DNA from: a virus
Length of the DNA: 64,000 nucleotides
Virus record (IMG/VR): IMGVR_UViG_3300010354_000065
Coordinates: 10,808-74,807 of that record
Strand: one strand, 5' to 3'
Shown here: piece after piece, positions 121 through 23,800 of the stretch
How positions within the stretch are numbered: the first letter of the stretch is position 1
How the letters are laid out: every line of letters starts with the position of its first letter
Made by a program: the position numbers and the translations under genes
The notes under the pieces: generated by a model
The model's database searches: none
Seen by the model: the letters and a program-made list of their open reading frames with translations, nothing else
What the model was told of the DNA's origin: nothing

Positions 121-558
121 TCACTCCGATGTAGTTGCTGCTTCTTTTTGTGCAACATCAAGAAGCAATGCTGATGCCCAAGCCATTGCTTCGACGTCAC
201 TTTTTGACTTTCTGATCTTTGACTTCAACTGTCTGTTATCAGAATTTTTAATAGAATCAATCTCAAAAATTTTTAACTTAGCAGCAAACAGCTCTTCTTG
301 TTGCTTACGTTGTTGTTTTGCTAGTTCTTCTTGATGTTTTCGATCTCTCTCTGCATTGATCTCTTGAATTTTCTTACGCGTGTTAGCTTCTAATTGCTCG
401 TCCGTAAACTTTGCCTTGATCTCAACAAGATCTGGATTTGTTACATCGGACTCCGATATTGTTGCTTGTGCAACACGGCCATCATCATAATGAAATTCAG
501 CAGAGATGACAGTTCTTGCATTGTTAATCCAATGCGGATTTGCGATTGTACGTTTCAT
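121..558 (-). CDS. hypothetical protein with coiled coil (possible fibre assembly chaperone)
   Basis: ORF track 121..573; ATG at 558 overlaps the upstream TGA (ATGA), so it is the likelier start. Confidence 0.7.
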   Translation of the reverse strand: MKRTIANPHWINNARTVISAEFHYDDGRVAQATISESDVTNPDLVEIKAKFTDEQLEANTRKKIQEINAERDRKHQEELAKQQRKQQEELFAAKLKIFEIDSIKNSDNRQLKSKIRKSKSDVEAMAWASALLLDVAQKEAATTSE

Positions 559-3500
559 GCTGTTCTTACCCAAAGTTTAATTGATTGAATTGTCTCCGGA
601 GTTGACATAATGGTCAACCCTGACCAGGCTGCTAGATATTGCCCTAATGCACTATTATATAGGCCAGTAAATAAAGAAGAAAACGAAGATACTGTACCTG
701 TGAATGTTTTTGAGTATGATCCTGAAAAGCCAAGGATAGAAGTTCCTGTGTATGCGCCAGCGTAGTTTCCGGAATATGCCTGAGCGTACGTTGCTCCTGC
801 ATAAAGAGAGCTTGTAAACAACTTTCCATAAACACCAGCATATGTACCCGAGTATACATTAGTATACACTGGAAGTTGGTTATACAAGCCTGTAAAGAAA
901 TTTGAGAAGCTTCCGGTAAATAACCTACTATATGTGCTTGTGAACAAAGATCCAAAAGCCCCTGTAAACGCGCCGGTGAATTGTCCTACATATGTACCAC
1001 TAAATGCTCCGGTGAAATTTCTAGAGTACGCACCCGTATAGATTGACGTGTATCCCCCTGTAAATTGACCGGTGAAAGTCTGATTATAAGATCCACCAAA
1101 CACACCGCTGAATACTTGATTAAAGGATCCAGCATAAACTCCTGTGAAAGTCTGGTTGAATATACCAGTATACGCGCCTGTAAAATTCTGGTTAAACACC
1201 CCTGTATATGCACCACTGAATGCACCAGTAAATGCTTGACTGTAAATTCCTGTATAATTACCAGTAAACGCTCCTGTATAGACTCCTGTAAAGAATCTAC
1301 TAAACACCTGTGAATAAACACCAGTGAAAAAGCCCACATACCCTCCAGAAAACGCACCCGTATAATCAAAGGTGAAATTTCTTGAGAAGGCTTGGTTATA
1401 AACTCCTGTGAACGTTTGATTGAAAATACCTGTATAATTTCCAGAGAATGTGTTTGCGTATACGCCTGAATATATTCCAGTGAAGTTACCCTGATAACTT
1501 CCTACATAAGCTCCAGCATACACACCAGTGAAAGCTCCAGTGTATCCTCCACTGAAAGCCCCCGTAAAGTTTCCTTGATATCCCCCTACAAACACTCCCG
1601 TGAAGGCTCCTGTGTATGCTCCAGCGTATGCTCCTGTAAATGAACCAAGATAACTTCCTGCATATGCGCCAGCGTATATGCCTGTAAAGGCACCAGTGTA
1701 CCCGCCTGAATAATTTCCTGTGAAGTTACCAGCGTACCCTCCAACATATGCGCCAGCATATATTCCTGTAAAGGCACCTGTGTATCCGCCTGAATAATTT
1801 CCTGTAAAACTACCTTGATAGTTTCCTGCATATGCACCAGCATATATTCCTGTAAAGGCACCTGTGTATCCGCCTGAATAATTTCCTGTAAAACTACCTT
1901 GATAGTTTCCTGCATATGCACCAGCGTATATCCCTGTAAAGGCACCAGTGTACCCGCCTGAATACGACCCGGTGAAAGAACCCTTATAACTTCCTGCATA
2001 TGCACCAGCATATATTCCTGTAAACGACCCTACGTAACCACCCGAATAAATGCCTGTAAAGGTTTGTTGATACACTCCCGAATATAAACCAGTAAATGTT
2101 TGATTATATCCGCCAACGTATGCACCAGCGTACGAACCCACATATGACCCACTATACCCACCTGAATACGTACCGCTGAAAGCCTGTTGATACACACCTG
2201 CATATGTTCCTGTGAAATTACCAGCGTACCCACCTGAATATATTCCACTAAATGTTTGTGCGTAAGCTCCTGAATATATACCGGTAAAATATCCTATGTA
2301 ACCACCTGAATACGTACCAGTGTAAACTCCAGCATAAATGCCTGTATAAGAACCTGTGTACGCACCTGTAAATGCTCTTGTATACCCACCAGAATACGTA
2401 CCAGTGAAATACCCTACGTAACCACCTGAGTAAATACCGGTAAAATATCCTATGTAACCACCAGAATATATTCCGGTGAATGCTCGAGTGTATCCCCCAG
2501 AGTATAAACCAGTGAAGTACCCAACATAACTACCTAAGTACGTACCAGTGTAAACTCCGGCATAAATGCCTGTATAAGAACCTGTGTACGCACCTGTAAA
2601 TGCTCTTGTGTATCCACCTGAATATATTCCCGTGAATGTTTGGGCATACGCACCCGCGTAAGTTCCAGTAAAGTTACCTTGATATGATCCTGAGTAAAAC
2701 CCTTGGTATGCCCCAGTGAATAATCTACTATACGTACCAGAATAACCACCAGTAAAGTTGCCTTGGTAATTTCCCACATACGACCCTGTAAAGAATCCAG
2801 CATAAACAGCTGTGTATGGTCCTACGAAAAGGTCAGAATATACGCCTGTATAAGATCCTGTCCACACTCTTGTCCAGCTTGACCCATATACACCAATGTA
2901 GTTACCTGCATAGCTTCCGGAAAAAAATTGTCCTGTATAAGGATCTTGACGTGTTCGTGTATATGCTCCAGTAAATAGACGCGTGAAGGCTCCTTGATAA
3001 TACCCAGTAAACCATGTTGCATAATAACCAACATAATATGCTGAATAATAACCAAGATATGATACGCCTGTCCACGGACTAGCAAAATAACGAGGTCGCG
3101 ATCCCAAATAACCACCGGCGAAATACCCTATGTAACTACCTGCAAACGTTGGTGTGTAGGTGTTTTGATAGTTGCCTGCGTAAAATCCTTGGAAATTTCC
3201 TTGATACAATCCTGTAAAGACTCTTGAAAATCCTCGTGAGTATGTACCCGCATAAGCACCTGTAAACAGTCTACTGTATGTGCCAGAATATATGCCAGTA
3301 AAGTTACCTTGATAGCTGCCTGAATAAAAACCAGCGTACGCACCTGTAAACAGTCTACTATATGTGCCAGAATATATGCCAGTGAAATACCCTACATATC
3401 CTCCTGCATAAGCGCCGGTAAAGGTGTTGTTATACGCGCCAGAATATGTCCCAGCATAAGCGCCAGCATAGTATCCTGTGTAACCACCAGAGTATGCACC

Positions 3501-5945
3501 CGTGAATGACTGCGCATACGCTCCTGCATATGCCCCAGTAAACGTTTGATTGTATGCGCCAGAATATGCACCGGTGAATGTTTGAGCATACGCACCTGCA
3601 TATGCACCAGTAAACGTTTGAGCATACGCTCCTGCATATATTCCCGTGAAAGTATTATTATATGAGCCAGAATATGTCCCAGCATAAGCGCCAGCATAAT
3701 ATCCCGTATAACCACCCGAATATACCCCAGTAAAGGTCTGTGCATATGCACCTGCATATCCACCTGTAAAGAAACCCACATAACCGCCGGTGTAAGCACC
3801 TGTAAATACACGGCTGTATACCCCAGCATATACACCGGTGAAATTACCTACGTAGAAACCAACGTATGCCCCCGTATACACACCTGTATATGTTCCCGAG
3901 TACGCGCCAGTATATGATCCAGAAAAAACTCGCGTGTATCCCCCTGAGTATGTTCCAGTAAATGATCCAACATACCCACCCGCATATGCGCCGGTAAACG
4001 TTTGATTGTATACGCCCGTATAGTTGCCTGTGTACGATCCCGTGAACAATCTACTATACGTACCAGCAAACGTTCCTGTAAATGTTTGGTTGTAGATACC
4101 AGTGTAGTTACCTGTGTAGCTACCAGTAAATAAACTACTATATGTACCAGCAAACGTTCCTGTAAATGTTTGGTTGTAGATACCTGTGTAGTTACCCGTA
4201 TACGAACCTGTAAACAATCTACTATACGTGCCAGCAAAATTTCCCGTAAACGTCTGATTGTAAATACCAGTGTAATTGCCTGTATAGCTACCTGTAAAGA
4301 TCTGCGTGTATGTACCGGCAAATGTTCCTGTAAACGTCTGATTATAGACGCCGGTGTAGTTGCCGGTATAGGAGCCTGTAAATAAACTACTGTAAGTACC
4401 AACAAAACTACCAGTAAATGCTCGACTATACACACCTGTATAATTACCAGAAAATATAGTACTAAAGGTATTTAAAAATGTTCCTGTAAACGTTTGATTG
4501 TATATACCGGTGTAATTACCTGTATACGAACCTGTAAATAAACTACTGTATATGCTGGTGTAAGCCCCAGTGAAGAAACCTACATATCCACCAGTGTAAA
4601 TTCCTGTGAACGCACCCGTATACCCACCGGTGAATTGACCGGTAAAGGCACCGGTGTAAGCTGCGGTAAATATCCTGCTATAAATTCCCGTAAACGTTTG
4701 CGCATAAACACCACTGAAAGCACCAGTGAATCCACCTACATAATCTCCGCTGAAAGCCTGGTTGTATGTGCCCGCATATATCCCTGTAAACGCTCCTGTG
4801 AATTGTTGGTTGTATATACCTGTGTATATGCCTGTGAAATTGCCAACATATATCCCTGAATAAACACCCGAGAACTGTCCTGTATATGCTCCGGTGTATG
4901 TCCCTGAGAACGTTCCCGTATATCCGCCTGTGTATGCTCCTGTAAATGTTCCTGTGAAGCCTTGGTTATATGCGCCAGTATATGTTGTTGCATATTGTCC
5001 TGTAAATGTGCCTGTAAACTCGCTTGAATAAGCTCCGGTAAAGTTTGCAGAGAAGACATTGGTAAATTCACGTGAAAAAGTTGCACCATACGTTCCTGTG
5101 AAATCCCCAGTAAACTCACGAGAGAAAGCTTGTGTGTATGCACCAGTCCACGTAGCCGTGTAAGCTTGAGCGTTATAAGTTTGTGGTCTTATCTGTGAAC
5201 GGGTATCATCAAACCCGCTTCCTGCCTGAACCCAAGTACCACCCGATGAAGGCATTGTTGTTGATAATTGATACGTACCAATACCCGTGCTTACCATATA
5301 GTTTCGAGCGCGGTGAGTCAAAGACTGAATATTGGTATTTGACATCTCGCGCAAAGCACCAGAGTCCCATTTTAGTGGGCGTACAGATCCTCCTGAACCC
5401 TCAGAAGTTTTTTGCCAAAGAAAAGTCTCATTATCAAAATATGGTCGTTCAGTATTTTTTAACCGACCACGCGCTACCCAAGTACCTGTTGCTGGAGCCG
5501 TTGGCTGAAGAACATATGCTCCGACGCCTCCGTTAACAATGTAAGATACAGCTTTGGATATGATTGTGGTGTCGATGTCGGTGTTAGCCATTTGCTGAAC
5601 ACCATTCAAAGTACTATTCCAGCACACAGGACGAATCATTAACGGATCCGTTAGCGGACCACCGCCAGTTCTCTGATATATTGACGTATTTGAATAAACT
5701 AGGTTTGCTTCGGATACTGGATGATCACCTATTTGTTGATCATAATAACTATCGGACCATGTTCCTATCAACGTTGAATTTGCTGGTATAAGATCCCCAG
5801 GATTTTGAACAATTAATGATCCAATATCCTCTGACGAAGCAAAATCAGTACCAATAACATTGGACACAAGTCCGTCGATGTCCGTGTTAGACATCTCCTG
5901 AAGACTGGACGTAGTTGTATTATAATAGAGCGGACGGAGCGGCAT
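555..5945 (-). CDS. giant virion fibre-like protein, 1796 aa, with about 1500 aa of [FY]-[TSA]-G-x tetrapeptide repeats
   Basis: N-terminal domain of three RPL..EMS..GTWV..DT..LWxRT units, the third interrupted by the repeat tract and completed by C-terminal IKLWVRTA; lies in the late structural operon. Confidence 0.8.
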   Translation of the reverse strand: MPLRPLYYNTTTSSLQEMSNTDIDGLVSNVIGTDFASSEDIGSLIVQNPGDLIPANSTLIGTWSDSYYDQQIGDHPVSEANLVYSNTSIYQRTGGGPLTDPLMIRPVCWNSTLNGVQQMANTDIDTTIISKAVSYIVNGGVGAYVLQPTAPATGTWVARGRLKNTERPYFDNETFLWQKTSEGSGGSVRPLKWDSGALREMSNTNIQSLTHRARNYMVSTGIGTYQLSTTMPSSGGTWVQAGSGFDDTRSQIRPQTYNAQAYTATWTGAYTQAFSREFTGDFTGTYGATFSREFTNVFSANFTGAYSSEFTGTFTGQYATTYTGAYNQGFTGTFTGAYTGGYTGTFSGTYTGAYTGQFSGVYSGIYVGNFTGIYTGIYNQQFTGAFTGIYAGTYNQAFSGDYVGGFTGAFSGVYAQTFTGIYSRIFTAAYTGAFTGQFTGGYTGAFTGIYTGGYVGFFTGAYTSIYSSLFTGSYTGNYTGIYNQTFTGTFLNTFSTIFSGNYTGVYSRAFTGSFVGTYSSLFTGSYTGNYTGVYNQTFTGTFAGTYTQIFTGSYTGNYTGIYNQTFTGNFAGTYSRLFTGSYTGNYTGIYNQTFTGTFAGTYSSLFTGSYTGNYTGIYNQTFTGTFAGTYSRLFTGSYTGNYTGVYNQTFTGAYAGGYVGSFTGTYSGGYTRVFSGSYTGAYSGTYTGVYTGAYVGFYVGNFTGVYAGVYSRVFTGAYTGGYVGFFTGGYAGAYAQTFTGVYSGGYTGYYAGAYAGTYSGSYNNTFTGIYAGAYAQTFTGAYAGAYAQTFTGAYSGAYNQTFTGAYAGAYAQSFTGAYSGGYTGYYAGAYAGTYSGAYNNTFTGAYAGGYVGYFTGIYSGTYSRLFTGAYAGFYSGSYQGNFTGIYSGTYSRLFTGAYAGTYSRGFSRVFTGLYQGNFQGFYAGNYQNTYTPTFAGSYIGYFAGGYLGSRPRYFASPWTGVSYLGYYSAYYVGYYATWFTGYYQGAFTRLFTGAYTRTRQDPYTGQFFSGSYAGNYIGVYGSSWTRVWTGSYTGVYSDLFVGPYTAVYAGFFTGSYVGNYQGNFTGGYSGTYSRLFTGAYQGFYSGSYQGNFTGTYAGAYAQTFTGIYSGGYTRAFTGAYTGSYTGIYAGVYTGTYLGSYVGYFTGLYSGGYTRAFTGIYSGGYIGYFTGIYSGGYVGYFTGTYSGGYTRAFTGAYTGSYTGIYAGVYTGTYSGGYIGYFTGIYSGAYAQTFSGIYSGGYAGNFTGTYAGVYQQAFSGTYSGGYSGSYVGSYAGAYVGGYNQTFTGLYSGVYQQTFTGIYSGGYVGSFTGIYAGAYAGSYKGSFTGSYSGGYTGAFTGIYAGAYAGNYQGSFTGNYSGGYTGAFTGIYAGAYAGNYQGSFTGNYSGGYTGAFTGIYAGAYVGGYAGNFTGNYSGGYTGAFTGIYAGAYAGSYLGSFTGAYAGAYTGAFTGVFVGGYQGNFTGAFSGGYTGAFTGVYAGAYVGSYQGNFTGIYSGVYANTFSGNYTGIFNQTFTGVYNQAFSRNFTFDYTGAFSGGYVGFFTGVYSQVFSRFFTGVYTGAFTGNYTGIYSQAFTGAFSGAYTGVFNQNFTGAYTGIFNQTFTGVYAGSFNQVFSGVFGGSYNQTFTGQFTGGYTSIYTGAYSRNFTGAFSGTYVGQFTGAFTGAFGSLFTSTYSRLFTGSFSNFFTGLYNQLPVYTNVYSGTYAGVYGKLFTSSLYAGATYAQAYSGNYAGAYTGTSILGFSGSYSKTFTGTVSSFSSLFTGLYNSALGQYLAAWSGLTIMSTPETIQSIKLWVRTA
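650..5180 (-). repeat. coding tetrapeptide repeat tract with 12-, 16- and 28-aa higher-order units (near-exact 84-bp tandem copies around 1750-1930 and 4040-4210)
   Basis: FTGIYAGAYAGNYQGSFTGNYSGGYTGA and FTGSYTGNYTGIYNQTFTGTFAGTYSSL units visible in the translation. Confidence 0.9.
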
Positions 5946-5951
5946 TTTGTA

Positions 5952-8813
5952 TCAAGCTGTTCTAACCCATAATGTATATGTAGTCGTTGTCGTAGTACCG
6001 GTTACCGTCAACCCCGAATATGCTCCTGTAAATAAACGTGTAAATGTGTTTGCATAGTTGCCACTGAAAGCTCCCGAGTAAGCTCCTGAATAGCTTCCTG
6101 TAAACTGTCCAGTATATACGCCAGTAAACACTCGCGAGTATATACCAGTGTATGATCCCGTAAACTGACCGGTATAAGTTCCGCTGAATACGTTAGAGTA
6201 TATACCGGAAAATTGACCAGTGTATGCTCCTGTCCAAGTGTTCAAGAATCCGCCAGTATAGGCACCTGCATAGGTTCCCGAGAACGCTCCTGTATATGTG
6301 CCTACGTATCCACCCGAAAAGCTTGCAGTGTATGATCCTGTAAAAGCTGTTGTATACCCACCAGTAAATTGACCAGTGAACGCTCCTGTATAGGTTCCGG
6401 AAAAGGTTGCTGTGTAAGAACCAGTAAATGATCCCGTATAGTTACCGGTAAACGAACCAGTAAAAAATCTTGAATAGGCGCCTGTATATGTTCCCGTATA
6501 CCCACCCGTGTAAGCGCTTGTGTAGCCTCCGGAGAAAGCTCTAGTATATCCACCGCTGAAAGTTTGATTGTAGGCTCCACTAAACGTACCAATATAAGAA
6601 ATGCTTGCGTACGGTCCTTGGTAACTTCCTGTAAAAAATCCCGAATACACGCCAGTGAATTGACCAGTATACGTGCTTGCATAATTAGCTGTGAAGTTGC
6701 CTACAAAATCTCCTGTAAATATTCTTGACCAACTGTTATTGTAAATTCCTGTGTATGAACCAGTGAATCCTCTTGTAAACTGATTGGAGTAGAATCCTTG
6801 GTAGTTTTGCAAATATTCACCAGTAAAGCCTCTTGTAAAGCTTCCAGTGAAAAATCCTTGATAGGACCCTCCAAATGTGTTCTGTCGCGAACCACCATAC
6901 GTGTTCTGTCGCGAACCACCATAAGAGCCAGCATAAGCTTGTCCACCATAATAGCCTGTATAATACACAGCGTTATATGGGTTCTGATAACTTCCTACGT
7001 AGGCTCCTGCACCGGCATAATATCCAGTATAATACGTATTGTTGAAGGGGTTCAAATAAGAACCGGAATATATTGGTACCACATAGTTGCCTGTATACGA
7101 TCCAGCGTACGTGCCAGTGTATGATCCAGCATATGTACCGGTATAATTTCCAGTAAACGTGCCACTGAACTCTCTTGAAAACGCTCGCGAATACGTACCA
7201 ACCCAGGCGCCGGTATACAATCCTGTGAATGCACCACTGAATCCACCCGAGTAAGTACCTGCATATATTCCCGAGTAAGCAGCTGCATAACTACCTGTAA
7301 AACCGTTATTTGAAAAAACGCGTGAGAATGTAGGTGTTACAAGGCGTGAAAAAGCCTGGTTATAGACGCCAGTAAAAAAGTTTGAGTAGCTTCCTGCGTA
7401 TGATCCTGTCCACACCGTACCAAACGCTCTTTGAAAGGCACCAGTAAAAAATCCTACATAACCTCCTGTGAAAGCCTGGTTGTAGGATCCCGCAAACGTT
7501 TGATTATATGCACCAGCAAATACTGAACCTTGGTAAGACCCAGAATATGTTGCAGTAAAGTTCTGATTATACGTACCAGCAAACGTTTGATTATACGCAC
7601 CAGCAAACGCCGAGCCTTGAAAAGATCCAGCGAAAACTCTTGAGAAAGCTTGGTTATAGGTGCCAGCAAACGTTTGATTATATGCACCAGCAAACGCTGA
7701 ACCCTGATACGTTCCACCATACTGTCCCGTAAATAAACGAGAGTACGTACCTCCATATACCCCGGTATAAGCTCCTGAATATATGTTTTGATATACACCG
7801 GTGAATGTTTGATTGAATCCACCCGTGAAATTGCCTACATATGGACCTGTAAATGCCTGATTATATGTGCCAGCGTATGCACCGGTAAATTTTGTAACGT
7901 CTAAGAAGTTACCTGTAAAGCCTTGGTTAAATGTACCTACATACGCTCCAGTAAACGCTTGAGTATATGCACCTGTAAACGCACCGGTAAATGTACCCAA
8001 ATAACTACCAGCATATGCTGTATCAACCAGTCCGTTTGAAGTATCGGTAAACGTACCACGAGCTACCCATGTTCCCGGTGTTGGTGTAGTCGTAGATATT
8101 TGATATCTACCAATTCCTGAATTACTAATATAATCACGAATAGCCGGAAGCAGAGATTGTATTTCTGCATTTGTCATCTCCGTTAAGCTATTAGCAGCTC
8201 CTTTGAGAGGACGCTTTGTACCTGTACCTGTATTTGTAGTACGTTGATAAAGGTTGTATGTTGTAGTTAATGTTGTATTACTTACACTATCAACATACGT
8301 ATCTACGATAGAAGATTTAACAACCCAAGTACCAGTTCCTGGTGCTGTTGTTCCAAGCCAATATGCACCTTGAGCTCCTGCTGAAACTTCAGCAACTACT
8401 TTACTAAGGATGTCATCACGAATTTCGTTATTTGAAAACTGCTTTACTTGCTGCACACCACCTATGACCTCTACCTTAAGAGGCCGAGTCATCGCGTTGA
8501 AGTTAGTCGTTAGCGATGTATCTAAGTTTTGATATAGAGTCCACGTTGTTGATGAAGAAGTAACAGGATGTGTACCAATTGGAGGTAAACTTGTTGGATA
8601 TACATCAACAACTGTACCGCCAGTGACATTGTTCCACGTTGGTGCTGTTGTTCTTAACTCAAGAACATTACCATAACCAGAGACGTTTGAAGAACTATAA
8701 AATTGATCAGTTATTAACGGAACGATATGATTGAGGATGTCTGCATCAGACATCTCTTGTACACCATCGCTCGTACTCGCCGTAACATATCTTGCTCTAA
8801 GTGGTCTTGCCAT
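5952..8813 (-). CDS. paralogous repeat fibre-like protein, 953 aa
   Basis: same N-terminal architecture (RPL, QEMS, GTWV), FTG/YTG repeat tract and identical C-terminus LWVRTA as 555..5945. Confidence 0.8.
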   Translation of the reverse strand: MARPLRARYVTASTSDGVQEMSDADILNHIVPLITDQFYSSSNVSGYGNVLELRTTAPTWNNVTGGTVVDVYPTSLPPIGTHPVTSSSTTWTLYQNLDTSLTTNFNAMTRPLKVEVIGGVQQVKQFSNNEIRDDILSKVVAEVSAGAQGAYWLGTTAPGTGTWVVKSSIVDTYVDSVSNTTLTTTYNLYQRTTNTGTGTKRPLKGAANSLTEMTNAEIQSLLPAIRDYISNSGIGRYQISTTTPTPGTWVARGTFTDTSNGLVDTAYAGSYLGTFTGAFTGAYTQAFTGAYVGTFNQGFTGNFLDVTKFTGAYAGTYNQAFTGPYVGNFTGGFNQTFTGVYQNIYSGAYTGVYGGTYSRLFTGQYGGTYQGSAFAGAYNQTFAGTYNQAFSRVFAGSFQGSAFAGAYNQTFAGTYNQNFTATYSGSYQGSVFAGAYNQTFAGSYNQAFTGGYVGFFTGAFQRAFGTVWTGSYAGSYSNFFTGVYNQAFSRLVTPTFSRVFSNNGFTGSYAAAYSGIYAGTYSGGFSGAFTGLYTGAWVGTYSRAFSREFSGTFTGNYTGTYAGSYTGTYAGSYTGNYVVPIYSGSYLNPFNNTYYTGYYAGAGAYVGSYQNPYNAVYYTGYYGGQAYAGSYGGSRQNTYGGSRQNTFGGSYQGFFTGSFTRGFTGEYLQNYQGFYSNQFTRGFTGSYTGIYNNSWSRIFTGDFVGNFTANYASTYTGQFTGVYSGFFTGSYQGPYASISYIGTFSGAYNQTFSGGYTRAFSGGYTSAYTGGYTGTYTGAYSRFFTGSFTGNYTGSFTGSYTATFSGTYTGAFTGQFTGGYTTAFTGSYTASFSGGYVGTYTGAFSGTYAGAYTGGFLNTWTGAYTGQFSGIYSNVFSGTYTGQFTGSYTGIYSRVFTGVYTGQFTGSYSGAYSGAFSGNYANTFTRLFTGAYSGLTVTGTTTTTTYTLWVRTA

Positions 8814-8814
8814 C

Positions 8815-10104
8815 TCATGGTCCCAGGCGTGTTCCGCTTACATCGTAAATCCCAAAGTTGCCTGCATGAGCAACGTTTCCTGCTTTATATTTAAACTCCG
8901 CCTGATTAAACTGCAGCACTGCTGTTGTAGCAGTTGAGTTAACAGATTGAAACAAGAAACCCCCGTCTCCTGCTGTTGCATTCGCTTCATATGTTGTAAC
9001 AGTTAAACGCGTATTTGTTGTATTACCGGCTAACGAAACGTGTGCATTATGTGTTGCGTTTCCTGACAGAAAACGAATAGCTGCATTAGCACTCGTTATT
9101 ACTGTATTACCATTTATTGAAATTAGATCAGAGGTTGGTGATGCATTTTTAAAACCCACACGGTTGTTAACACCGTCTAAGAACAACAAGTCAGTATCAA
9201 ACGTTGCGTTTGCTGCAAAAGTTGCAACACTTGTTACGTTAACAAAGCCTGTAATTGTTGTGTTACCAAGTCCAGCAGTATTATTTACTAGAAATGCACC
9301 GTTTACTGTAGCTGCACCTGTTAAACTTGTAGCGCCTAACACTCTTAAAGAACCAACGTTCGCTAAACCTATTGATGTATCAATATTACCGGCTGTAGAA
9401 AATCTTATTCTCTGTGGAGTTAAAGTGTGCCCCGTTTCTGTCACACCTGCTGTTAGATCAATAGCTGATCCATTGTAAGTAGCTGACAGCTTGAAAGCTG
9501 TTGTGTTTGAGCTAACAACAAAATAACTGCTTCCGTTTGTCAATCCTGTTACAGCTGTGTTTCCTGTTGAAACAACATATCTAACAAGATCGCCATCGCT
9601 GAAACCATGAACTGCTGTCGTTGTAATAAAGTCTGTTGTGTTAGCAACACCAGTTAAGGCATTAAATGTCGCTGACGAACCGACAACATTTGCAAATCCC
9701 GAAAAGGTAGTATTACCGACAGCTAAAGTATTTGCAATGGTAACAGCACCATTTACATCCAACGTACCTCTTAAATTAGTTGCTCCACCAACGTTTGCTG
9801 TAGAAGATACATTAATGAAACCTGTTATTGTTGTGTTACCTGCCGCTAACGTATTACTTACGTTAACAGCCCCAACAAAATCCCCACCCATTGCGTTGAT
9901 AGTCCAACGCGCTGTACTGTTACCAAGAGAGTATGTGTTGTTTACAGGTAGAACATTACTTTGCAGATTTGCAGTGATAGAAAGATACGTTCCGTTGATA
10001 TCAACGTTACCATTGAAGCCTGCAGGGCCGGCAATGTTAGCGGTACCTAGAGCAAGAAAGCCGTTCTCGACCTTAAATTGTACATTGCTTGACGTATCAG
10101 CCAT
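8815..10104 (-). CDS. virion structural / tail fibre-associated protein
   Basis: GNTTITGFxNVS repeats shared with the next gene, plus one copy of the about 85-aa FNA..HxF..GNTAV.GL.NG..Y.V..TGH domain that recurs in the gp7-like gene. Confidence 0.65.
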   Translation of the reverse strand: MADTSSNVQFKVENGFLALGTANIAGPAGFNGNVDINGTYLSITANLQSNVLPVNNTYSLGNSTARWTINAMGGDFVGAVNVSNTLAAGNTTITGFINVSSTANVGGATNLRGTLDVNGAVTIANTLAVGNTTFSGFANVVGSSATFNALTGVANTTDFITTTAVHGFSDGDLVRYVVSTGNTAVTGLTNGSSYFVVSSNTTAFKLSATYNGSAIDLTAGVTETGHTLTPQRIRFSTAGNIDTSIGLANVGSLRVLGATSLTGAATVNGAFLVNNTAGLGNTTITGFVNVTSVATFAANATFDTDLLFLDGVNNRVGFKNASPTSDLISINGNTVITSANAAIRFLSGNATHNAHVSLAGNTTNTRLTVTTYEANATAGDGGFLFQSVNSTATTAVLQFNQAEFKYKAGNVAHAGNFGIYDVSGTRLGP

Positions 10105-10112
10105 TACTTACC

Positions 10113-12218
10113 TTACTTGATGAACTGTATAAACATTTTAACAGACGAGTTAGCAGTTGTCTGTTGGAATTTTATTGCAAGAGCTGTTGTATTTATCGCA
10201 GTAGAAAAGTTACCTAAATTAGCTGTTGCTGGAGCAGCAACGGTACCGTAAATGGTAAGCGTTACATCGTTTGCTGAAGCAGAGTGAGCAAATATCATCT
10301 CTTGTGTTGATACGTTAGCTCCACTGAAGGATGTTACTGTAGCTGTTATTTTTGCAGCTCTGTATCCAACCGGTTTCGTTAAAACAAGAACGTCTACTGG
10401 GGACGCTGTTGTTGTACCAAGATTTGAGTTAGCGACAACGTGTAGAACAACGTCTGATTGCAGAGTGGTGTTTCCACCAACACTTAATGCACCACCAACA
10501 TTAGCGGTTGATGAAACGTTGATAAACCCTGTTACGGTTGTATTACCTGTTGCTAATGTGTTATTGATAGTAGCTACACCATTAACAGTTGCAGCACCAA
10601 CAACATTCAGCGTCGAACTTACGTTAGCAAAACCAGTTATTGTTGTATTACCGACAGCAGCGGTGTTATTAACTGTAAATGCTCCATTAACCGTTGCAGC
10701 ATCAACAACATTCAGCGTCGAACTTACGTTAGCAAAACCTGTGATTGAAGTGTTACCTGTTGCTAATGTGTTGTTAATTGTTGCAGCACCATTTACAGTT
10801 GCGGCGCCCACAACGTTTAGTGTTGTTGATACGTTTGCAAAGCCAGTAATAGATGTATTACCTGTTGCTAATGTATTGTTGATCGTTGCAGCACCGTTAA
10901 CTGTTGCAGCACCCACAACATTCAATGTTGAACTTACGTTAGCAAATCCTGTAATCGATGTGTTACCAGTTGCCAATGTATTATTAATAGTAGCTGCACC
11001 GTTAACAGTTGCAGCACCTACGACATTTAATGTCGATGATACATTTGCAAAACCTGTAATTGATGTGTTACCAGCTGCTAGTGTTGTTGATACGTTTGCA
11101 AAACCTGTTATGGTAACGTTACCTGATGCAACAGTGTTTGCTACAGTAACAGCACCGTTAACCGTTAACGTACTACGTAGATTAACAGCTCCACCAACGT
11201 TAGCTGTTGAGGAAATGTTTGCAAATCCAGTTATTGTTGTGTTTCCAACAGCTGCTGTGTTGTTAACCGTGAATGCTCCGTTAACAGTTGCAGCACCTAC
11301 AACGTTTAATGTGGAAGATACGTTAGCAAATCCTGTTACAGTTGTATTACCAACCGCTGCTGTGTTGTTAACTGTCAGAGCACCATTTACTGTTGCTGGA
11401 CCGACCACATTTAACGCTGTTGTAACGTTTGCTGTTGTTAGAGTCGTAATACCGATTACGTTTAATGTATTTGATAACGACGTAGCATTAACAACTGTTA
11501 AATTGCCTGTGACCGAAACACTGTTGACACTTACCGTCAAAGCGGTTACAGTACTGTTGCCAGTGAGCTGAATACTATTAACAGAGGTATTGCCTTTTAG
11601 AGTGGTGTTACCCGTGATAGTGCTTACAGCTTGAACGCCAAACGCTGTTGCGTTAATATTTGTATTTGCATTTTGTAAGGATACATTTGAGGTAACTGAC
11701 ACGTTACCCGTTTGTATTGTCATTAGTGCGGTGTTGACAAATACATTAGAGCTATTTAAATACGCGTTTGAAGAGAGCTCTATTCTACCGCCACTAAAAA
11801 TAGTTGCGACTGTATTGCCTATCATGTAGGTAGAGTCAATAATTACATTAGCCTGCACATTGGCTAATGTACCTTCAACTATGAAGCTCTGTGTGTTAGA
11901 GTAAAAGTATCCTGTTGAATTATAAATTGCAACGTTACTAGAAAACGAAGTATTACTTCCAGTGAAATTTGCGTTTGATGTTACACCCAGATTGGCCGAC
12001 GTGCTAACGTTACCACCACGAAGCGTTGTTCCAACGCCAATAGTATTTGCTGCAAATACACCTATTAGTTGCGAATTACCCGATACTTGAGCGCCACCAG
12101 CAGTGTTATTGGCTGTAAGAGCCTGAGTAGTGAAAGTGTCAGCCATCTGGTTGGTAATACCAATCCAGGTCGCAAAAGAGTCTGTCGATATAACAACGTT
12201 AGCTATTGATCTTGCCAT
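10113..12218 (-). CDS. tail fibre-like beta-helix repeat protein
   Basis: N-terminal TDSFATWIGITN motif resembles T4-like fibre/baseplate attachment segments; 35-aa tandem repeats. Confidence 0.7.
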   Translation of the reverse strand: MARSIANVVISTDSFATWIGITNQMADTFTTQALTANNTAGGAQVSGNSQLIGVFAANTIGVGTTLRGGNVSTSANLGVTSNANFTGSNTSFSSNVAIYNSTGYFYSNTQSFIVEGTLANVQANVIIDSTYMIGNTVATIFSGGRIELSSNAYLNSSNVFVNTALMTIQTGNVSVTSNVSLQNANTNINATAFGVQAVSTITGNTTLKGNTSVNSIQLTGNSTVTALTVSVNSVSVTGNLTVVNATSLSNTLNVIGITTLTTANVTTALNVVGPATVNGALTVNNTAAVGNTTVTGFANVSSTLNVVGAATVNGAFTVNNTAAVGNTTITGFANISSTANVGGAVNLRSTLTVNGAVTVANTVASGNVTITGFANVSTTLAAGNTSITGFANVSSTLNVVGAATVNGAATINNTLATGNTSITGFANVSSTLNVVGAATVNGAATINNTLATGNTSITGFANVSTTLNVVGAATVNGAATINNTLATGNTSITGFANVSSTLNVVDAATVNGAFTVNNTAAVGNTTITGFANVSSTLNVVGAATVNGVATINNTLATGNTTVTGFINVSSTANVGGALSVGGNTTLQSDVVLHVVANSNLGTTTASPVDVLVLTKPVGYRAAKITATVTSFSGANVSTQEMIFAHSASANDVTLTIYGTVAAPATANLGNFSTAINTTALAIKFQQTTANSSVKMFIQFIK
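10500..11460 (-). repeat. 35-aa (105-bp) coding tandem repeat TGNTSITGFANVSSTLNVVGAATVNGAATINNTLA
   Basis: about 8-9 degenerate copies in the translation. Confidence 0.85.
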
Positions 12219-20812: not shown

Positions 20813-23800
20813 TTAGGTGTTTGAGGTTTCAATGCTATTTATAGCAGTCATAGCAAGGTTTGCTAACGACAATGTGTTAACCTTGCCAAAAGCTCTTGTT
20901 CCTGCAACGTGTGTTATTTGTTTTAAAACATCAAAGTATCTGTCAAAAGGAACTTTTGTTTGTACTTCATAGCTATATTCCTGATAATACTCGTTGTCTT
21001 GTAGCTTTTTATCATCACTTATAAAACCTCTTGTTGATGAATAGTATCCTGCTCCCACCCCTTGTTGACCCAATTCCACAATAGCAGTAACACTAAACAC
21101 CGAACCCTCTTTTGTTAGAGTAACTGTTTCTTGATCAAGATATCCAAACCCTGAATCAGCAACAGCCAACTTTTTAACGACATTATTAGCAGTTTGCACA
21201 TTAGCTTCTATGGCAGCATTGAGGCCGACAGGAATTGTGTTCGCATCCTCGACTATTGAAACAACATTGGCTGTTGTACCCGATGTTCTTCCTATGATAG
21301 CATTGTTCAATAAGAACGTGTTTTCTAAGTTTATACGTTTTAACTTTAATACGCTAGAGTTAGCAGATTTAACTAACGCACGTGCCGTTGTAGCATATGT
21401 TGTAGTTGTTACGGCAGAAACGTTTGATGTAGAACCTGAAGATAAGCCTTTGAGCAGCGTGCTCGATCCTGTTGTATTAACAAATGTACCCGTTGTATTA
21501 ATTAACTTTACGCTGCCGCTACCTGCACTTATAGCTGCTTCTTGAACAAAGCCAGAAGCCGTTGCAGTTGCAGGAGAAGTACCTTGATATACAAACTCAT
21601 TAATAACAAACGTTGAAGTTGATATACCATTAGCAGCTGTTCCGGAGAAGGTATTAACAGTTAACTGTATAGCAGGATTACTATATGACTGTTGTATTTG
21701 TTCGCCAACAACAAAAGCACCCACCGTGTTAGAAACTTGCATAACATAATCACGTGCGTTATACCCAACAACAAACGTGTCAACAACAGTGACGAACGGA
21801 TCAACGTTGTATTCTGAACCCGGATTAACAGCCACAATTGAAGCAATAGAACCTATTGTCGTTGAATCAAATCTCAACGCATCAAGTAATATTGTATCTA
21901 ATGAGGTACCAGGAAATTTGACAAATCCTAAACCTCTAAACATGGGCTCATTGTAACCAACGTTACTATAAGAAGAATTAGCTCCCGTAAGTATTTTCAG
22001 TGGACCATATAAACGATGTCCTGTCTGAGTTAACCCTTTTGTTAATGCAACCCGTGATCCCGTATAGGAGGTCTTTAGTGCTACGTGAGTAGCATTAGCC
22101 TGATCAATGTAGTAAACAGTATTGTTTGATAAACCACCGACAGCTGTATTACCTGAATCAGTGTAGTAAAGTACGGCTGTGTTTGGTACAAAGTCGATAG
22201 CGGTCGTGATTGCTATTGTATTATTAGAGCCAGTTACTCCGGCTCTTGTAAGAGAATGTCCAGTCTGTGTGAGTCCAGCTGTTATATTAATTGGCGCACC
22301 GCCAGAAGTTAATGATAACTGCAGCGTTGTCGATCCTGGTGTTGTGTTTATAACGTAATACGTAGATCCATTTGTCAACCCAGACACTGCTGTGTTTGTT
22401 GGATGAACAGCGTACGTAACAGTTTCGTTGTTACTAAATGGGTGTTTTGTTAGAAGAGTGATAACTTCTGTGGTGTTCGCAACACCGGTGTTTGCATTGA
22501 AGTAAATGGATGAGGGTAGTAATACACCTGTTCCACCCGTACCCCCTGTAACATCCGTATTGGCATTGAAAGTGGTGTTGGTCCCATACCCACCAGCTGA
22601 GACGTTTGAACCTCTTCCATTCAACATTATCCCACTGAAAGCAACATTGCCTGTGTTACGACTTTCAATAAAGTCTGGTGATAATAACACGTTTTCCGTG
22701 TCAGTTAACAAACCAATCTGGAAACCTGCACCTGTACCGGTACTAACGTTAGCAACACGAGCATAAGTGTTCGAAACATCTCCGACAATGTACGTGTATG
22801 GTGATCCTATAAATCCATTAACGCCTATATCAACAACACCTAAGAATCCTGTTGCATATGTAAATGTATGGCCATCTTCATTGCGATTGCTTGAAGATAT
22901 GTTAACAGGAGTGCCATTTCTTGTCGTTGCTAGTTGAAATGTCGCTGCTGTAGTATTAACTACGTAATAGGGGCGACCATTTACTAGTCCGTCAATAGCC
23001 GAATTTCCTGTCGCAACGCTGTAACGAACAACATAGTTATTTTCAAACGTGTGATTGCTTATTGTGATTGTATCGTTTGTATTTGATACGTCTGTTTGAG
23101 CATTGAAGGAAAAAGACGTGTAGGTTGCGTTTGAACCTGTCGTGTTACCTGTAGCTGTTCTATCCGTATAACCACTAATAACAGCTGTGCCATATGTTTT
23201 GATTAAATCATGCCCGGTTTCATTGCCACCTCTTGTCATTGATATAGTAGCACCACCTGGTGTAGACGACAAATAAAGAGATGTAGACCCTTGCACCGTA
23301 TTGACAACGTAATAAGCTACACCAATTTGTAGTTCAGCAATTGCTGTATTACCACTACGCACATGATAACGTACAAGATCGTTGTTACTGAAGTCATGAG
23401 CTTCAGTTGTGTTGATTCTGTTTCCACCAGATGTATACAATCCCGTATAAGAAAGTGTATAATTACCGGTAAAACCACCATAAACTCCAGTAAATGAAGC
23501 TGTGAATCCACCTGTGAATGATGGCGTGTACGTGCCTGTGAAGGATCCGGTGAACAATCCAGCAAAAGCTTTCGTATAAGCATCGCGTGTGTACACGCCT
23601 GTGAATGAATTATACGTTCCTGAAAAACTTGGAGCAAATGCTCCTGTAAATGACCCAGAGCTAGTAAATGTCGTTGTGAAAAACCCTGTATAAGTTGTGT
23701 TATAAGAGCCCGAAAAGCTTTGATTGAAAACACCTGTGAAGGTTGGTGTGAACGCACCTGTAAACGACTGAGAGAAGGTACCGGTAAAAAGACGTGAATA

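What the first reader, a model, noticed from the sequence alone, without database searches (positions are those of the whole stretch)
555..5945. Mirror-symmetric (palindromic-register) repeat protein: a roughly 700-residue-per-arm antiparallel hairpin
Seen: the spacing of F versus Y in the [FY]xGx tract is mirrored about a centre near nt 3010, which holds the turn motifs SPWTG and DPYTG. Moving outward, both arms show the same series of unit lengths: 16, 12, 12, 28, four 12s, 28, and further out five 28-aa units, one short variant, then one more 28-aa unit. The arms use different sequences (FTGSYTGNYTGIYNQT.. at about 4000-4410 versus FTGIYAGAYAGNYQGS.. at about 1635-2030) at equal distance from the centre. 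The tract interrupts the third repeat of the N-terminal domain between GTWV..FDDT and the final strand IKLWVRTA, so its two ends must be adjacent in 3D. Inference: an out-and-back hairpin fibre, possibly on the order of 200 nm if extended. Each length change needs matched duplications at two loci 1-3 kb apart, which is an unusual evolutionary constraint.
Basis: partly seen in the sequence, partly recalled or inferred. Interest (0 to 1): 0.86.

Follow-up and report, generated by a model that had tools for sequence, protein, structure and literature searches.

The report
Giant fold-back hairpin phage fibre
A 1796-residue tail-region protein of an uncultured T4-like phage has two roughly 700-residue halves of a four-residue Phe/Tyr-Gly repeat that match rung for rung when one is read backwards, so the chain most likely runs out and back as one very long two-stranded fibre, a design I found in no database or paper.

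Summary
ORF 555-5945 (-) encodes a three-repeat base domain. About 1430 residues of [FY]xGx tetrads are inserted before its last strand (LWVRTA).

- **Mirror:** Phe and Tyr positions obey i+j=1958 over one ungapped block of 675 residues (FF 58, YY 95, mismatches 13; z=12.4). This holds in the aperiodic outer third too, so periodicity does not explain it.
- **Pairing rule:** Gln/Arg at tetrad position 3 always precedes Phe. It faces Gly in the other arm in 48 of 51 cases.
- **Orthologs:** four (1792-2089 aa) keep the mirror at other arm lengths. The 28-aa units number 5+5 here and 8+8 in one ortholog. There is also a matched 4-aa indel and FF/YY double changes.
- **Family:** 65 of 170 distant homologs show the mirror.
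- **Closest ortholog:** divergence is confined to aa 750-1215. Its two borders are mirror partners, so this is a swappable distal tip.

Best reading: an intramolecular antiparallel hairpin fibre, about 230 nm long if extended, in the baseplate/tail-fibre module. Fold, oligomer state and virion location are inferred, not shown. AlphaFold2 was confident only for the base and the hairpin root.

The base domain matched no Pfam, PHROG or PDB entry, and no paper turned up. This scan has already noted the same family on other DNA several times.

The parts
555..5945 (-). Whole gene, 1796 aa: base domain, outgoing arm, tip, return arm, closing strand
   Evidence: Intact orthologs of 1792, 1875, 2082 and 2089 aa.
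5196..5945 (-). Base domain, aa 1-250. Three tandem repeats of about 90 aa: aa 1-98, aa 99-186 and aa 187-250. The third is completed by the C-terminal strand.
   Evidence: Repeat alignments z=10, 15 and 5. 324 homologs at E<1e-3. In homolog P0133 pLDDT is above 90. No Pfam, PHROG or PDB sequence match.
3123..5147 (-). Outgoing arm, aa 267-941, [FY]xGx tetrads
   Evidence: Ungapped mirror block with the return arm, S=1958.
2898..3122 (-). Tip, aa 942-1016. The tetrad register breaks and shifts by 2. Turn-like SPWTG (aa 956-960) and DPYTG (aa 1001-1005) flank the mirror centre at aa 979.
   Evidence: At mirror centres across the family, 78% of aromatic spacings differ from 4, against 33% in the arms.
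873..2897 (-). Return arm, aa 1017-1691, tetrads in the shifted register
621..872 (-). Conserved irregular stretch of the return side, aa 1692-1775, with no counterpart on the outgoing side. Role unknown.
   Evidence: No internal mirror. Conserved in all orthologs.
555..620 (-). Closing strand of base-domain repeat 3 (aa 1776-1796, ending LWVRTA) plus the stop codon
   Evidence: The C-terminal LW.R.A end is conserved across the family. It pairs with the strand after GTW in the AlphaFold2 model of P0133, E247-269 with E494-517.
3994..4418 (-). Outgoing-arm tandem array, 84 nt x 5.1 (28-aa units of 16+4+8)
   Evidence: Unit starts at aa 522-634.
1655..2060 (-). Return-arm tandem array, 84 nt x 4.8 (28-aa units of 16+12), with a different consensus, at the mirror position of the outgoing array
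2301..3698 (-). Divergent distal cassette, aa 750-1215. Identity to ortholog L007 is 44-71% here and 95-100% in the flanking arms. The borders, aa 750 and about 1215, are mirror partners.
5952..8813 (-). Adjacent paralog, 953 aa: same base domain, tetrad tract and LWVRTA end, with a weaker mirror that has 1-aa register drifts
   Evidence: (z=4.3).

Best explanation
The gene encodes a structural fibre of a T4-like phage, built as one intramolecular antiparallel hairpin.

The base is a domain of three tandem repeats, each ending in a beta-hairpin. In the third repeat that hairpin is drawn out by about 1430 residues.

The chain leaves the base as [FY]xGx tetrads (aa 267-941) and turns in an irregular tip (aa 942-1016). 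It then returns alongside itself (aa 1017-1691) and closes the base domain with its last strand.

Aromatic and Gly positions lie on one face of the ribbon, and residue i faces residue 1958-i. Most rungs are Tyr:Tyr flanked by Gly:Gly. At intervals there are 'nodes' where Phe faces Phe and a Gln or Arg two residues upstream in one arm lies over a Gly of the other arm.

Because each node needs residues from both arms, only matched changes are viable. That explains the paired repeat expansions and the exchange of the tip as one contiguous cassette.

If fully extended the fibre would be about 230 nm long (about 700 residues at 0.33 nm each). The likely role is long-range host capture or adhesion, with the variable tip as the contact site.

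Shown here: the mirror, the pairing rule, the paired length changes, the base-domain topology and the genomic context. Inferred: beta-ribbon geometry, extension, oligomer state, virion attachment and function.
For: - **Mirror:** one 675-aa ungapped block at S=1958, p=5e-28 and z=12.4. It is also present in the aperiodic outer third.
- **Pairing rule:** Gln/Arg at tetrad position 3 precedes Phe 51 times and Tyr 0 times. Its mirror partner is Gly in 48 of 51 cases. 50 of 58 F:F nodes carry exactly one non-Gly at -2, and 92 of 95 Y:Y rungs carry none.
- **Orthologs:** the mirror is kept in single ungapped blocks of 639, 718 and 841 aa (z=14.3, 12.6, 19.2). Node spacing differs between orthologs in the inner part.
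- **Paired length changes:** 28-aa units number 5+5 here and in L007, and 8+8 in L005. There is a matched 4-aa indel and FF<->YY double changes at three alignable sites.
- **Family:** 65 of 170 complete distant homologs pass a permutation test at p<0.05. In 46 of these the centre lies where anchoring at the base predicts, S-L=240-249 (examples).
- **Topology:** the tract interrupts repeat 3. AlphaFold2 with an alignment gives pLDDT above 90 for the base of homolog P0133. It shows a long root hairpin, E247-269 with E494-517.
- **Turn at the centre:** the tetrad register breaks there. Ortholog L006 has a bare QDPYTG turn within 5 residues of its centre.
- **Tip cassette:** divergence from L007 is confined to aa 750-1215, with mirror-partner borders.
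- **Context:** the gene lies downstream of gp6-, gp7- and gp8-like baseplate wedge genes and repeat-rich fibre-like proteins. The one isolate homolog, Phage C48C1 (Kyanoviridae), lies between annotated tail-fibre and chaperone genes. Ortholog L002 carries a weak CBM_4_9-like domain in one arm.
Against: - There is no structure. AlphaFold2 on the centre alone gave pLDDT 42.
- With an alignment, AlphaFold2 drew aa 276-351 of homolog P0133 as a solenoid. That stretch resembles pentapeptide-repeat proteins (MfpA, Z=9.0), at pLDDT 50-68. The return arm was left unmodelled.
- The second face of the ribbon shows no size complementarity at the mirror register.
- About 80 extra conserved residues near the root of the return side are unexplained.
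- Matching is not absolute. L002 carries a 173-aa one-sided domain and a local 4-aa slip, and the paralog drifts by single residues.
- Virion incorporation and function are untested.
Confidence: 0.78

Rival explanations
1. Same out-and-back topology, but three chains bundle their hairpins into a six-stranded needle, as in the tip of the T4 long tail fibre. Aromatic residues would pack against Gly of neighbouring strands in a shared core.
For: - In the T4 gp37 needle the collar domain is formed by residues 811-881 and 1010-1026, so the chain goes out and returns.
- There a core Phe packs against a strand Gly of another subunit (PMC6957217, read).
- Most phage fibres are trimers (established knowledge).
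- Aromatic and Gly residues alternate on one face here.
Against: - The base domain already holds three repeats in one chain, which suggests a single chain imitating a trimer.
- Gln/Arg sit on the aromatic face at 51 nodes, which is hard to bury on a three-fold axis.
- The tract contains no His, so there are no iron sites.
- No sequence match to PDB fibre chains.
Confidence: 0.2
2. The mirror reflects pairing between two chains rather than within one. Two extended chains would lie antiparallel, with residue i of one facing 1958-i of the other. Each C-terminal strand would complete the partner's base domain, giving a filament twice as long with a base at each end.
For: Sequence mirror symmetry alone cannot separate a hairpin from a domain-swapped antiparallel dimer (reasoning).
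Against: - The tetrad register breaks and shifts by 2 exactly at the centre, which a continuous duplex would not need.
- L006 has a simple Pro-containing turn at its centre.
- AlphaFold2 closes the root hairpin within one chain at pLDDT above 90.
- A fibre needs one attachment end and one free tip.
- The centre is the most variable part.
Confidence: 0.07
3. Each arm folds on its own as a parallel beta-solenoid or another compact repeat fold. The mirror would then be a by-product of repeat periodicity.
For: The AlphaFold2 model of homolog P0133, aa 276-351, resembles pentapeptide-repeat beta-helices. MfpA gives Z=9.0 and rmsd 1.8 over 73 residues, and bactofilin gives Z=6.2.
Against: - That stretch has pLDDT 50-68, and the return arm is below 50.
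- Direct-lag F/Y agreement is 66-77%, against 88-98% for the mirror. In the aperiodic outer third the best lag gives p=0.03, against 1.4e-9 for the mirror.
- Node spacing varies from 4 to 28, so there is no constant coil length.
- A solenoid gives no reason for paired expansions or for the Gln/Arg-to-Gly rule across arms.
Confidence: 0.05

Closest known systems
Needle domain of the T4 long tail fibre tip, gp37 residues 811-1026 (PMC6957217; PDB 2XGF cited from my own knowledge)
   Same: It is a phage fibre part in which the chain runs out to a tip and returns, so N- and C-side segments form the same collar. Strands run along the fibre axis, Gly packs against an aromatic residue, and the tip binds the receptor.
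   Different: gp37 is an obligate trimer held by seven His-coordinated iron ions, with arms of about 70 residues and no tetrad repeat. Here the arms are about 700 residues, with no His, a four-residue repeat with a pairing rule, and a base domain with three repeats in one chain. There is no detectable sequence or fold relation.
Antiparallel intramolecular coiled-coil arms of SMC/Rad50 proteins (my own knowledge)
   Same: Two distant halves of one chain pair in reverse order to form a long rod with a distinct tip. Arm lengths must stay matched in evolution.
   Different: Those are alpha-helical heptad coiled coils of about 50 nm in chromosome ATPases. This is an all-beta, Gly-rich tetrad repeat (22% Gly) in a phage structural module.
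Stalk of streptococcal antigen I/II adhesins, where an alpha-helical A region is wound with a polyproline P region (my own knowledge)
   Same: It is a single-chain fold-back stalk made from two different repeat families lying far apart in sequence. It presents a tip domain and has matched repeat numbers.
   Different: It pairs a helix with a PPII helix, is about 50 nm long and is a bacterial surface protein. There is no aromatic/Gly tetrad and no mirror of residue identities.
Pentapeptide-repeat beta-helices (MfpA, Qnr, Rfr)
   Same: They are short-period repeats, and the low-confidence AlphaFold2 model of one arm of a homolog superposes on them (Z 6-9).
   Different: Their period is five residues with a constant 20-residue coil, and they need no second arm. 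They explain neither the mirror nor the paired indels.
MABP / perforin-like P2 beta-prism domains (PDB 3tow, 2qp2, 8b6v)
   Same: The base domain has three repeats. Its model aligns to these three-fold prisms over the whole base (model range 43-519; Z 5.5-6.2).
   Different: The scores are in the range of chance arrangements, and there is no sequence relation. None of these domains carries a drawn-out hairpin.

Membership tests
gp37-type trimeric out-and-back needle | The chain runs out to a tip and returns, so both ends meet in one collar | tested here: met
   Mirror block 267-941 <-> 1691-1017. The tract lies inside repeat 3 of the base.
gp37-type trimeric out-and-back needle | His-x-His iron-binding sites along the needle | tested here: not met
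   No His among the 1426 tract residues.
gp37-type trimeric out-and-back needle | Homotrimer | not testable with these tools
   The only complex job tested arm against arm and gave no answer. The three-repeat base argues for a single chain, but this is inference.
gp37-type trimeric out-and-back needle | Sequence or fold homology to solved fibre chains | tested here: inconclusive
   phmmer against PDB found only a weak IgA1 protease hit (E=0.0035) for the tract and nothing for the base. Foldseek found no match at E<=0.001.
Parallel beta-solenoid (pentapeptide-repeat-like) | Constant coil length, with like residues stacked at a fixed direct lag | tested here: not met
   Node spacings range from 4 to 28. 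The best direct lag is far weaker than the mirror, and gives p=0.03 in the outer third.
Parallel beta-solenoid (pentapeptide-repeat-like) | Fold similarity of a confident model | tested here: inconclusive
   Z=9.0 to MfpA, but over a stretch with pLDDT 50-68 in a homolog.
Phage tail fibre / adhesin (functional class) | Encoded in the baseplate/tail-fibre module | tested here: met
   gp6-, gp7- and gp8-like wedge PHROGs lie upstream. The C48C1 homolog lies among annotated tail-fibre and chaperone genes.
Phage tail fibre / adhesin (functional class) | Variable distal part with a conserved proximal part | tested here: met
   Identity to L007 is 44-71% in aa 750-1215 and 95-100% in the flanking arms.
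Phage tail fibre / adhesin (functional class) | Present in the virion and binds the host surface | not testable with these tools
   No isolate, proteome or image is available.
MABP-type three-fold beta-prism (base domain) | Three homologous repeats | tested here: met
   Repeat alignments z=10, 15 and 5. The secondary-structure pattern repeats three times.
MABP-type three-fold beta-prism (base domain) | Structural superposition clearly above background | tested here: inconclusive
   Z 5.5-6.2 to 3tow, 2qp2 and 8b6v, below the tool's stated level for trust.

The most novel reading that the evidence does not exclude
This would be a protein 'stem-loop'. One chain zips onto itself as a two-stranded beta-ribbon about 230 nm long, held by a simple residue-pairing rule: Tyr faces Tyr, Phe faces Phe, and Gln/Arg faces Gly. 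Length is tuned by matched repeat expansions in the two arms. The receptor-facing tip is one contiguous, swappable cassette. It would be a fibre architecture distinct from all known phage fibre folds, and a natural template for rods of programmable length.
Probability: 0.45. Interest if true: 0.9.

Novelty: categorically new. Interest (0 to 1): 0.8.

Why it matters
If the inference holds, this is a way of building a long thin protein rod that matches none of the known phage fibre folds (triple beta-helix, beta-spiral, coiled coil, collagen-like, iron-stapled needle).

- **Design:** a single chain is paired with itself over hundreds of residues by a readable code. That would make a natural scaffold for designed rods of set length.
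- **Evolution:** insertions must occur in matched pairs 1-3 kb apart, and orthologs show this happening (5+5 against 8+8 units). This resembles compensatory change in RNA stems more than ordinary protein evolution.
- **Modularity:** the distal tip is one contiguous DNA block, which simplifies host-range swapping.
- **Spread:** the family has hundreds of sequence clusters in uncultured aquatic T4-like phages and carries no annotation, so a whole class of virion appendage may be missing from current pictures of these phages.

Tried and rejected
- **AlphaFold2 on the centre alone** (aa 802-1156, no alignment): pLDDT 42, uninformative.
- **Complex prediction** of the outer outgoing arm (aa 274-470) with its mirror partner (aa 1488-1684): no answer, score 0.00, controls not run. 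This counts neither for nor against.
- **Size complementarity on the second ribbon face** (x2 against x4): r is about 0 at the mirror register and at shifted registers.
- **Database searches with the base domain:**
  - megablast and tblastn against isolate phages found no match.
  - The word-index search at near lengths found none.
  - There is no PHROG and no PDB sequence match.
  - The only Pfam hit for the whole protein is Gly-zipper_YMGG. It has no individually significant stretch, and I read it as compositional.
- **Fold searches:** Foldseek against PDB and BFVD gave nothing at E<=0.001. The ESM Atlas returned only unnamed viral clusters.
- **gp7-like baseplate protein insert** (aa 395-945 of ORF 20813-26230): no single-hairpin mirror, z=0.5.
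- **Twin xP[YFW] turn motif as a family-wide tip signature:** rejected. It flanks the centre in this gene, ortholog L007 and the paralog, but in only 1 of 55 distinct homolog centres.
- **Two-start antiparallel solenoid:** rejected. The secondary antidiagonals are symmetric (+/-12, -40, -52) and follow from internal periodicity, not from one coil length.
- **Compensatory-change counts in the 418-aa homolog group:** too little variation to add anything.
- **Literature:** four full-text searches found no description of such a fibre.
Full report
**What is there.**
The window is part of a 74.8-kb viral contig estimated at 44% complete. It carries T4-type baseplate wedge genes: PHROGs for gp6-, gp7- and gp8-like proteins. 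The nearest isolates are only 34-41% identical in gp6 (Sinorhizobium phiM12/phiN3, Caulobacter Cr30, Methylophilales Melnitz).

Downstream of the wedge genes lie large repeat-rich proteins. Then comes a 953-aa gene (5952-8813, -), followed by the gene in question (555-5945, -, 1796 aa).

**Anatomy.**
- Residues 1-250 are three tandem repeats of about 90 aa. Pairwise alignments score z=10, 15 and 5 against shuffles.
- The third repeat stops after its GTW...DDT strand and is completed only by the last residues of the protein (...IKLWVRTA).
- Between these lie about 1430 residues that are almost entirely four-residue units [FY]xGx. 338 of 397 aromatic spacings equal 4. The tract is 22% Gly, 16% Tyr, 15% Thr and 10% Phe, with no His and almost no charged residue except Arg.

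- Every Phe of the outgoing half has a Phe at position 1958-i in the returning half, from 274<->1684 in to 918<->1040.
- At this antidiagonal the counts are FF 58, FY 8, YF 8, YY 98 (Fisher p=5e-28). The next best antidiagonal reaches only p=8e-8.
- A gapped alignment of the N half against the reversed C half returns one ungapped block of 675 residues, 267-941 <-> 1691-1017. It scores z=12.4 against shuffling of the F/Y labels and is well above the non-reversed control.
- A periodic array is trivially palindromic, so I tested the aperiodic outer third (aa 274-470) alone. The mirror there gives 26 FF, 19 YY and 5 mismatches (p=1.4e-9). The best direct lag gives p=0.03 and the next best antidiagonal p=0.012.

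**A pairing rule.**
- The residue two before an aromatic is Gly 202 times before Tyr and never Gln or Arg. Before Phe it is Gln 30 times and Arg 21 times.
- The mirror partner of such a Gln/Arg is Gly in 48 of 51 cases.
- 50 of 58 F:F rungs carry exactly one non-Gly at -2 in one of the two arms, and 92 of 95 Y:Y rungs carry none.
- So a 'node' is a cluster of Phe, Phe and one long polar side chain lying over a Gly of the other arm. It needs residues from both arms. I infer this is why the two arms must stay matched.
- The other ribbon face (positions 2 and 4) shows no size complementarity.

**Relatives keep the mirror while changing length.**
Scans of viral and metagenome contigs gave four complete orthologs. 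Each has its own single ungapped mirror block:

| Ortholog | Length (aa) | Mirror block (aa) | z |
|---|---|---|---|
| L007 | 1792 | 639 | 14.3 |
| L006 | 1875 | 718 | 12.6 |
| L005 | 2082 | 841 | 19.2 |
| L002 | 2089 | two blocks split by a 173-aa globular domain in the outgoing arm | 9.2 |

- The inserted domain of L002 is weakly CBM_4_9-like (E=0.004, below the Pfam cut-off).
- The node-spacing series differ between orthologs in the inner part.
- The contiguous 28-aa units number five in each arm here and in L007, and eight in each arm in L005.
- L002 and L005 have one extra tetrad in the outgoing arm near aa 514, and L002 has one at the mirror position of its return arm.
- Three alignable rungs switch between FF and YY among orthologs.
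- These are the paired indels and compensatory changes that the hairpin reading predicts.

**The property is family-wide.**
- An exhaustive HMMER search with the base domain found 324 representatives at E<1e-3. A second search added about 110 more. All are unnamed or 'hypothetical'.
- Nearly all complete members end in LW.R.A and carry an aromatic/Gly tract of about 100 to over 1500 residues.
- Of 170 complete homologs, 65 pass a permutation test corrected for the choice of centre at p<0.05 (8.5 expected by chance), and 31 pass at p<0.01.
- In 46 of the 65 the centre falls where anchoring at the base predicts, S minus length = 240-249. Clean examples are P0123 (10 FF, 15 YY, 1 mismatch), P0081, P0059 and P0133. 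Many of these homologs are related, so the counts are not independent events.
- The only isolate hit is a 3347-aa protein of Phage C48C1 (Kyanoviridae). It has the same ends, YxRx tetrads and several inserted globular domains, and lies among annotated tail-fibre and chaperone genes.

**Structure prediction.**
- With a 75-sequence alignment, AlphaFold2 models the base of homolog P0133 at pLDDT above 90. The pattern strand-strand-helix-helix-hairpin occurs three times. The third hairpin is a long two-stranded root, E247-269 with E494-517.
- The rest of the tract is modelled at low confidence. Residues 276-351 (pLDDT 50-68) are drawn as a solenoid that superposes on pentapeptide-repeat proteins (MfpA Z=9.0), and the return arm is below 50.
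- I treat the solenoid as a typical repeat artefact. It explains neither the mirror, nor the cross-arm rule, nor the paired expansions. It remains the formal rival.
- The base aligns weakly to MABP/perforin-type three-fold prisms (Z 5.5-6.2).
- Foldseek found nothing in PDB or BFVD.

**Hairpin or antiparallel dimer.**
A mirror in sequence could also come from two extended chains lying head to tail. Several points argue against that:
- The tetrad register breaks at the mirror centre and shifts by two. Across the family, 78% of aromatic spacings differ from 4 at centres, against 33% in the arms.
- L006 has a bare QDPYTG turn within five residues of its centre.
- The root closes within one chain in the confident part of the model.
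- The centre is the most variable part.

**A swappable tip.**
Against its closest ortholog L007, the protein is 95-100% identical over aa 300-750 and 1215-1700, but only 44-71% identical over aa 750-1215. All indels fall in that block. Its borders, 750 and about 1215, are mirror partners (1958-750=1208).

In three dimensions this contiguous block would be the distal third of the fibre plus its tip. That is the pattern expected for a host-recognition module exchanged by a single recombination.

**Mechanism proposed.**
- The protein is a single-chain fold-back fibre anchored by a three-repeat base in the tail or baseplate region.
- An aromatic/Gly face zips the two arms together, with Phe/Gln-Arg nodes acting as register marks.
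- Length is about 0.33 nm per paired residue, so about 230 nm here if extended (established beta-strand rise; the extension itself is inferred).
- The variable tip contacts the host.
- Oligomer state is open. The three repeats within one chain and the polar residues on the aromatic face favour a single chain. The T4 gp37 needle is a precedent for three out-and-back chains sharing an aromatic/Gly core (PMC6957217).

**Novelty.**
The base domain has no Pfam, PHROG or PDB entry. Four literature searches found nothing that describes this family or design. This scan's own notes show that the same family was flagged and confirmed on other DNA several times. I used those notes only as leads.

**Unexplained.**
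- About 80 conserved residues near the root of the return side have no counterpart on the outgoing side.
- I have no reason for the 12/16/28 node spacing.
- The nature of the 540-aa aromatic/Gly insert in the gp7-like protein is unclear. It shows no single mirror.

Noticed in passing
window 5952-8813 (-): An adjacent 953-aa paralog has the same three-repeat base, a tetrad tract and a TLWVRTA end. Its mirror is weaker (z=4.3), and the register drifts by single residues (S=1203 to 1208). Its tip has two NP[FY] motifs around YYTGYYAGAGAY, like the tip of ortholog L007's large protein.
   Followed up: partly
window 20813-26230 (-), aa ~395-945: The gp7-like baseplate wedge protein (1805 aa) carries about 540 aa of similar aromatic/Gly repeats inserted after ...SSFNASLV. 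No single-hairpin mirror was detected (z=0.5). It may be several short hairpins or something else.
   Followed up: partly
L002:9942-10496 (+): An ortholog has a 173-aa globular domain, weakly CBM_4_9-like (E=0.004, below the cut-off), inserted in the outgoing arm only, about half-way up the predicted fibre. One-sided bulges are therefore tolerated.
   Followed up: partly
L003:11983-22026 (+) (Phage C48C1, OQ984149.1): A 3347-aa 'hypothetical protein' of a Kyanoviridae isolate has the same base and closing strand. Its tetrads are of the type Y-x-R-x, and it has at least five inserted globular domains. It is the only isolate-phage member found.
   Followed up: no
window 8815-10104 (-) and 10113-12218 (-): Two proteins (429 and 701 aa) are built from repeats of about 33 aa of the type TGFANVSSTLNVVGAATVNGA. 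They match only PHROGs of unknown function (701 aa) or none (429 aa), and are probably further fibre or beta-helix proteins.
   Followed up: no
window 121-573 (-) and L007:13816-14550: A 150-aa ORF overlaps the end of the fibre gene by 19 nt. In ortholog L007 the next gene has a weak glycosyltransferase family 2 hit (E=0.006, below the cut-off). Given 15% Thr and 8% Ser in the tract, glycosylation of the fibre is conceivable but untested.
   Followed up: partly
window 621-872 (-), aa 1692-1775: A conserved irregular stretch lies between the return arm and the closing strand, with no partner on the outgoing side and no internal mirror.
   Followed up: partly
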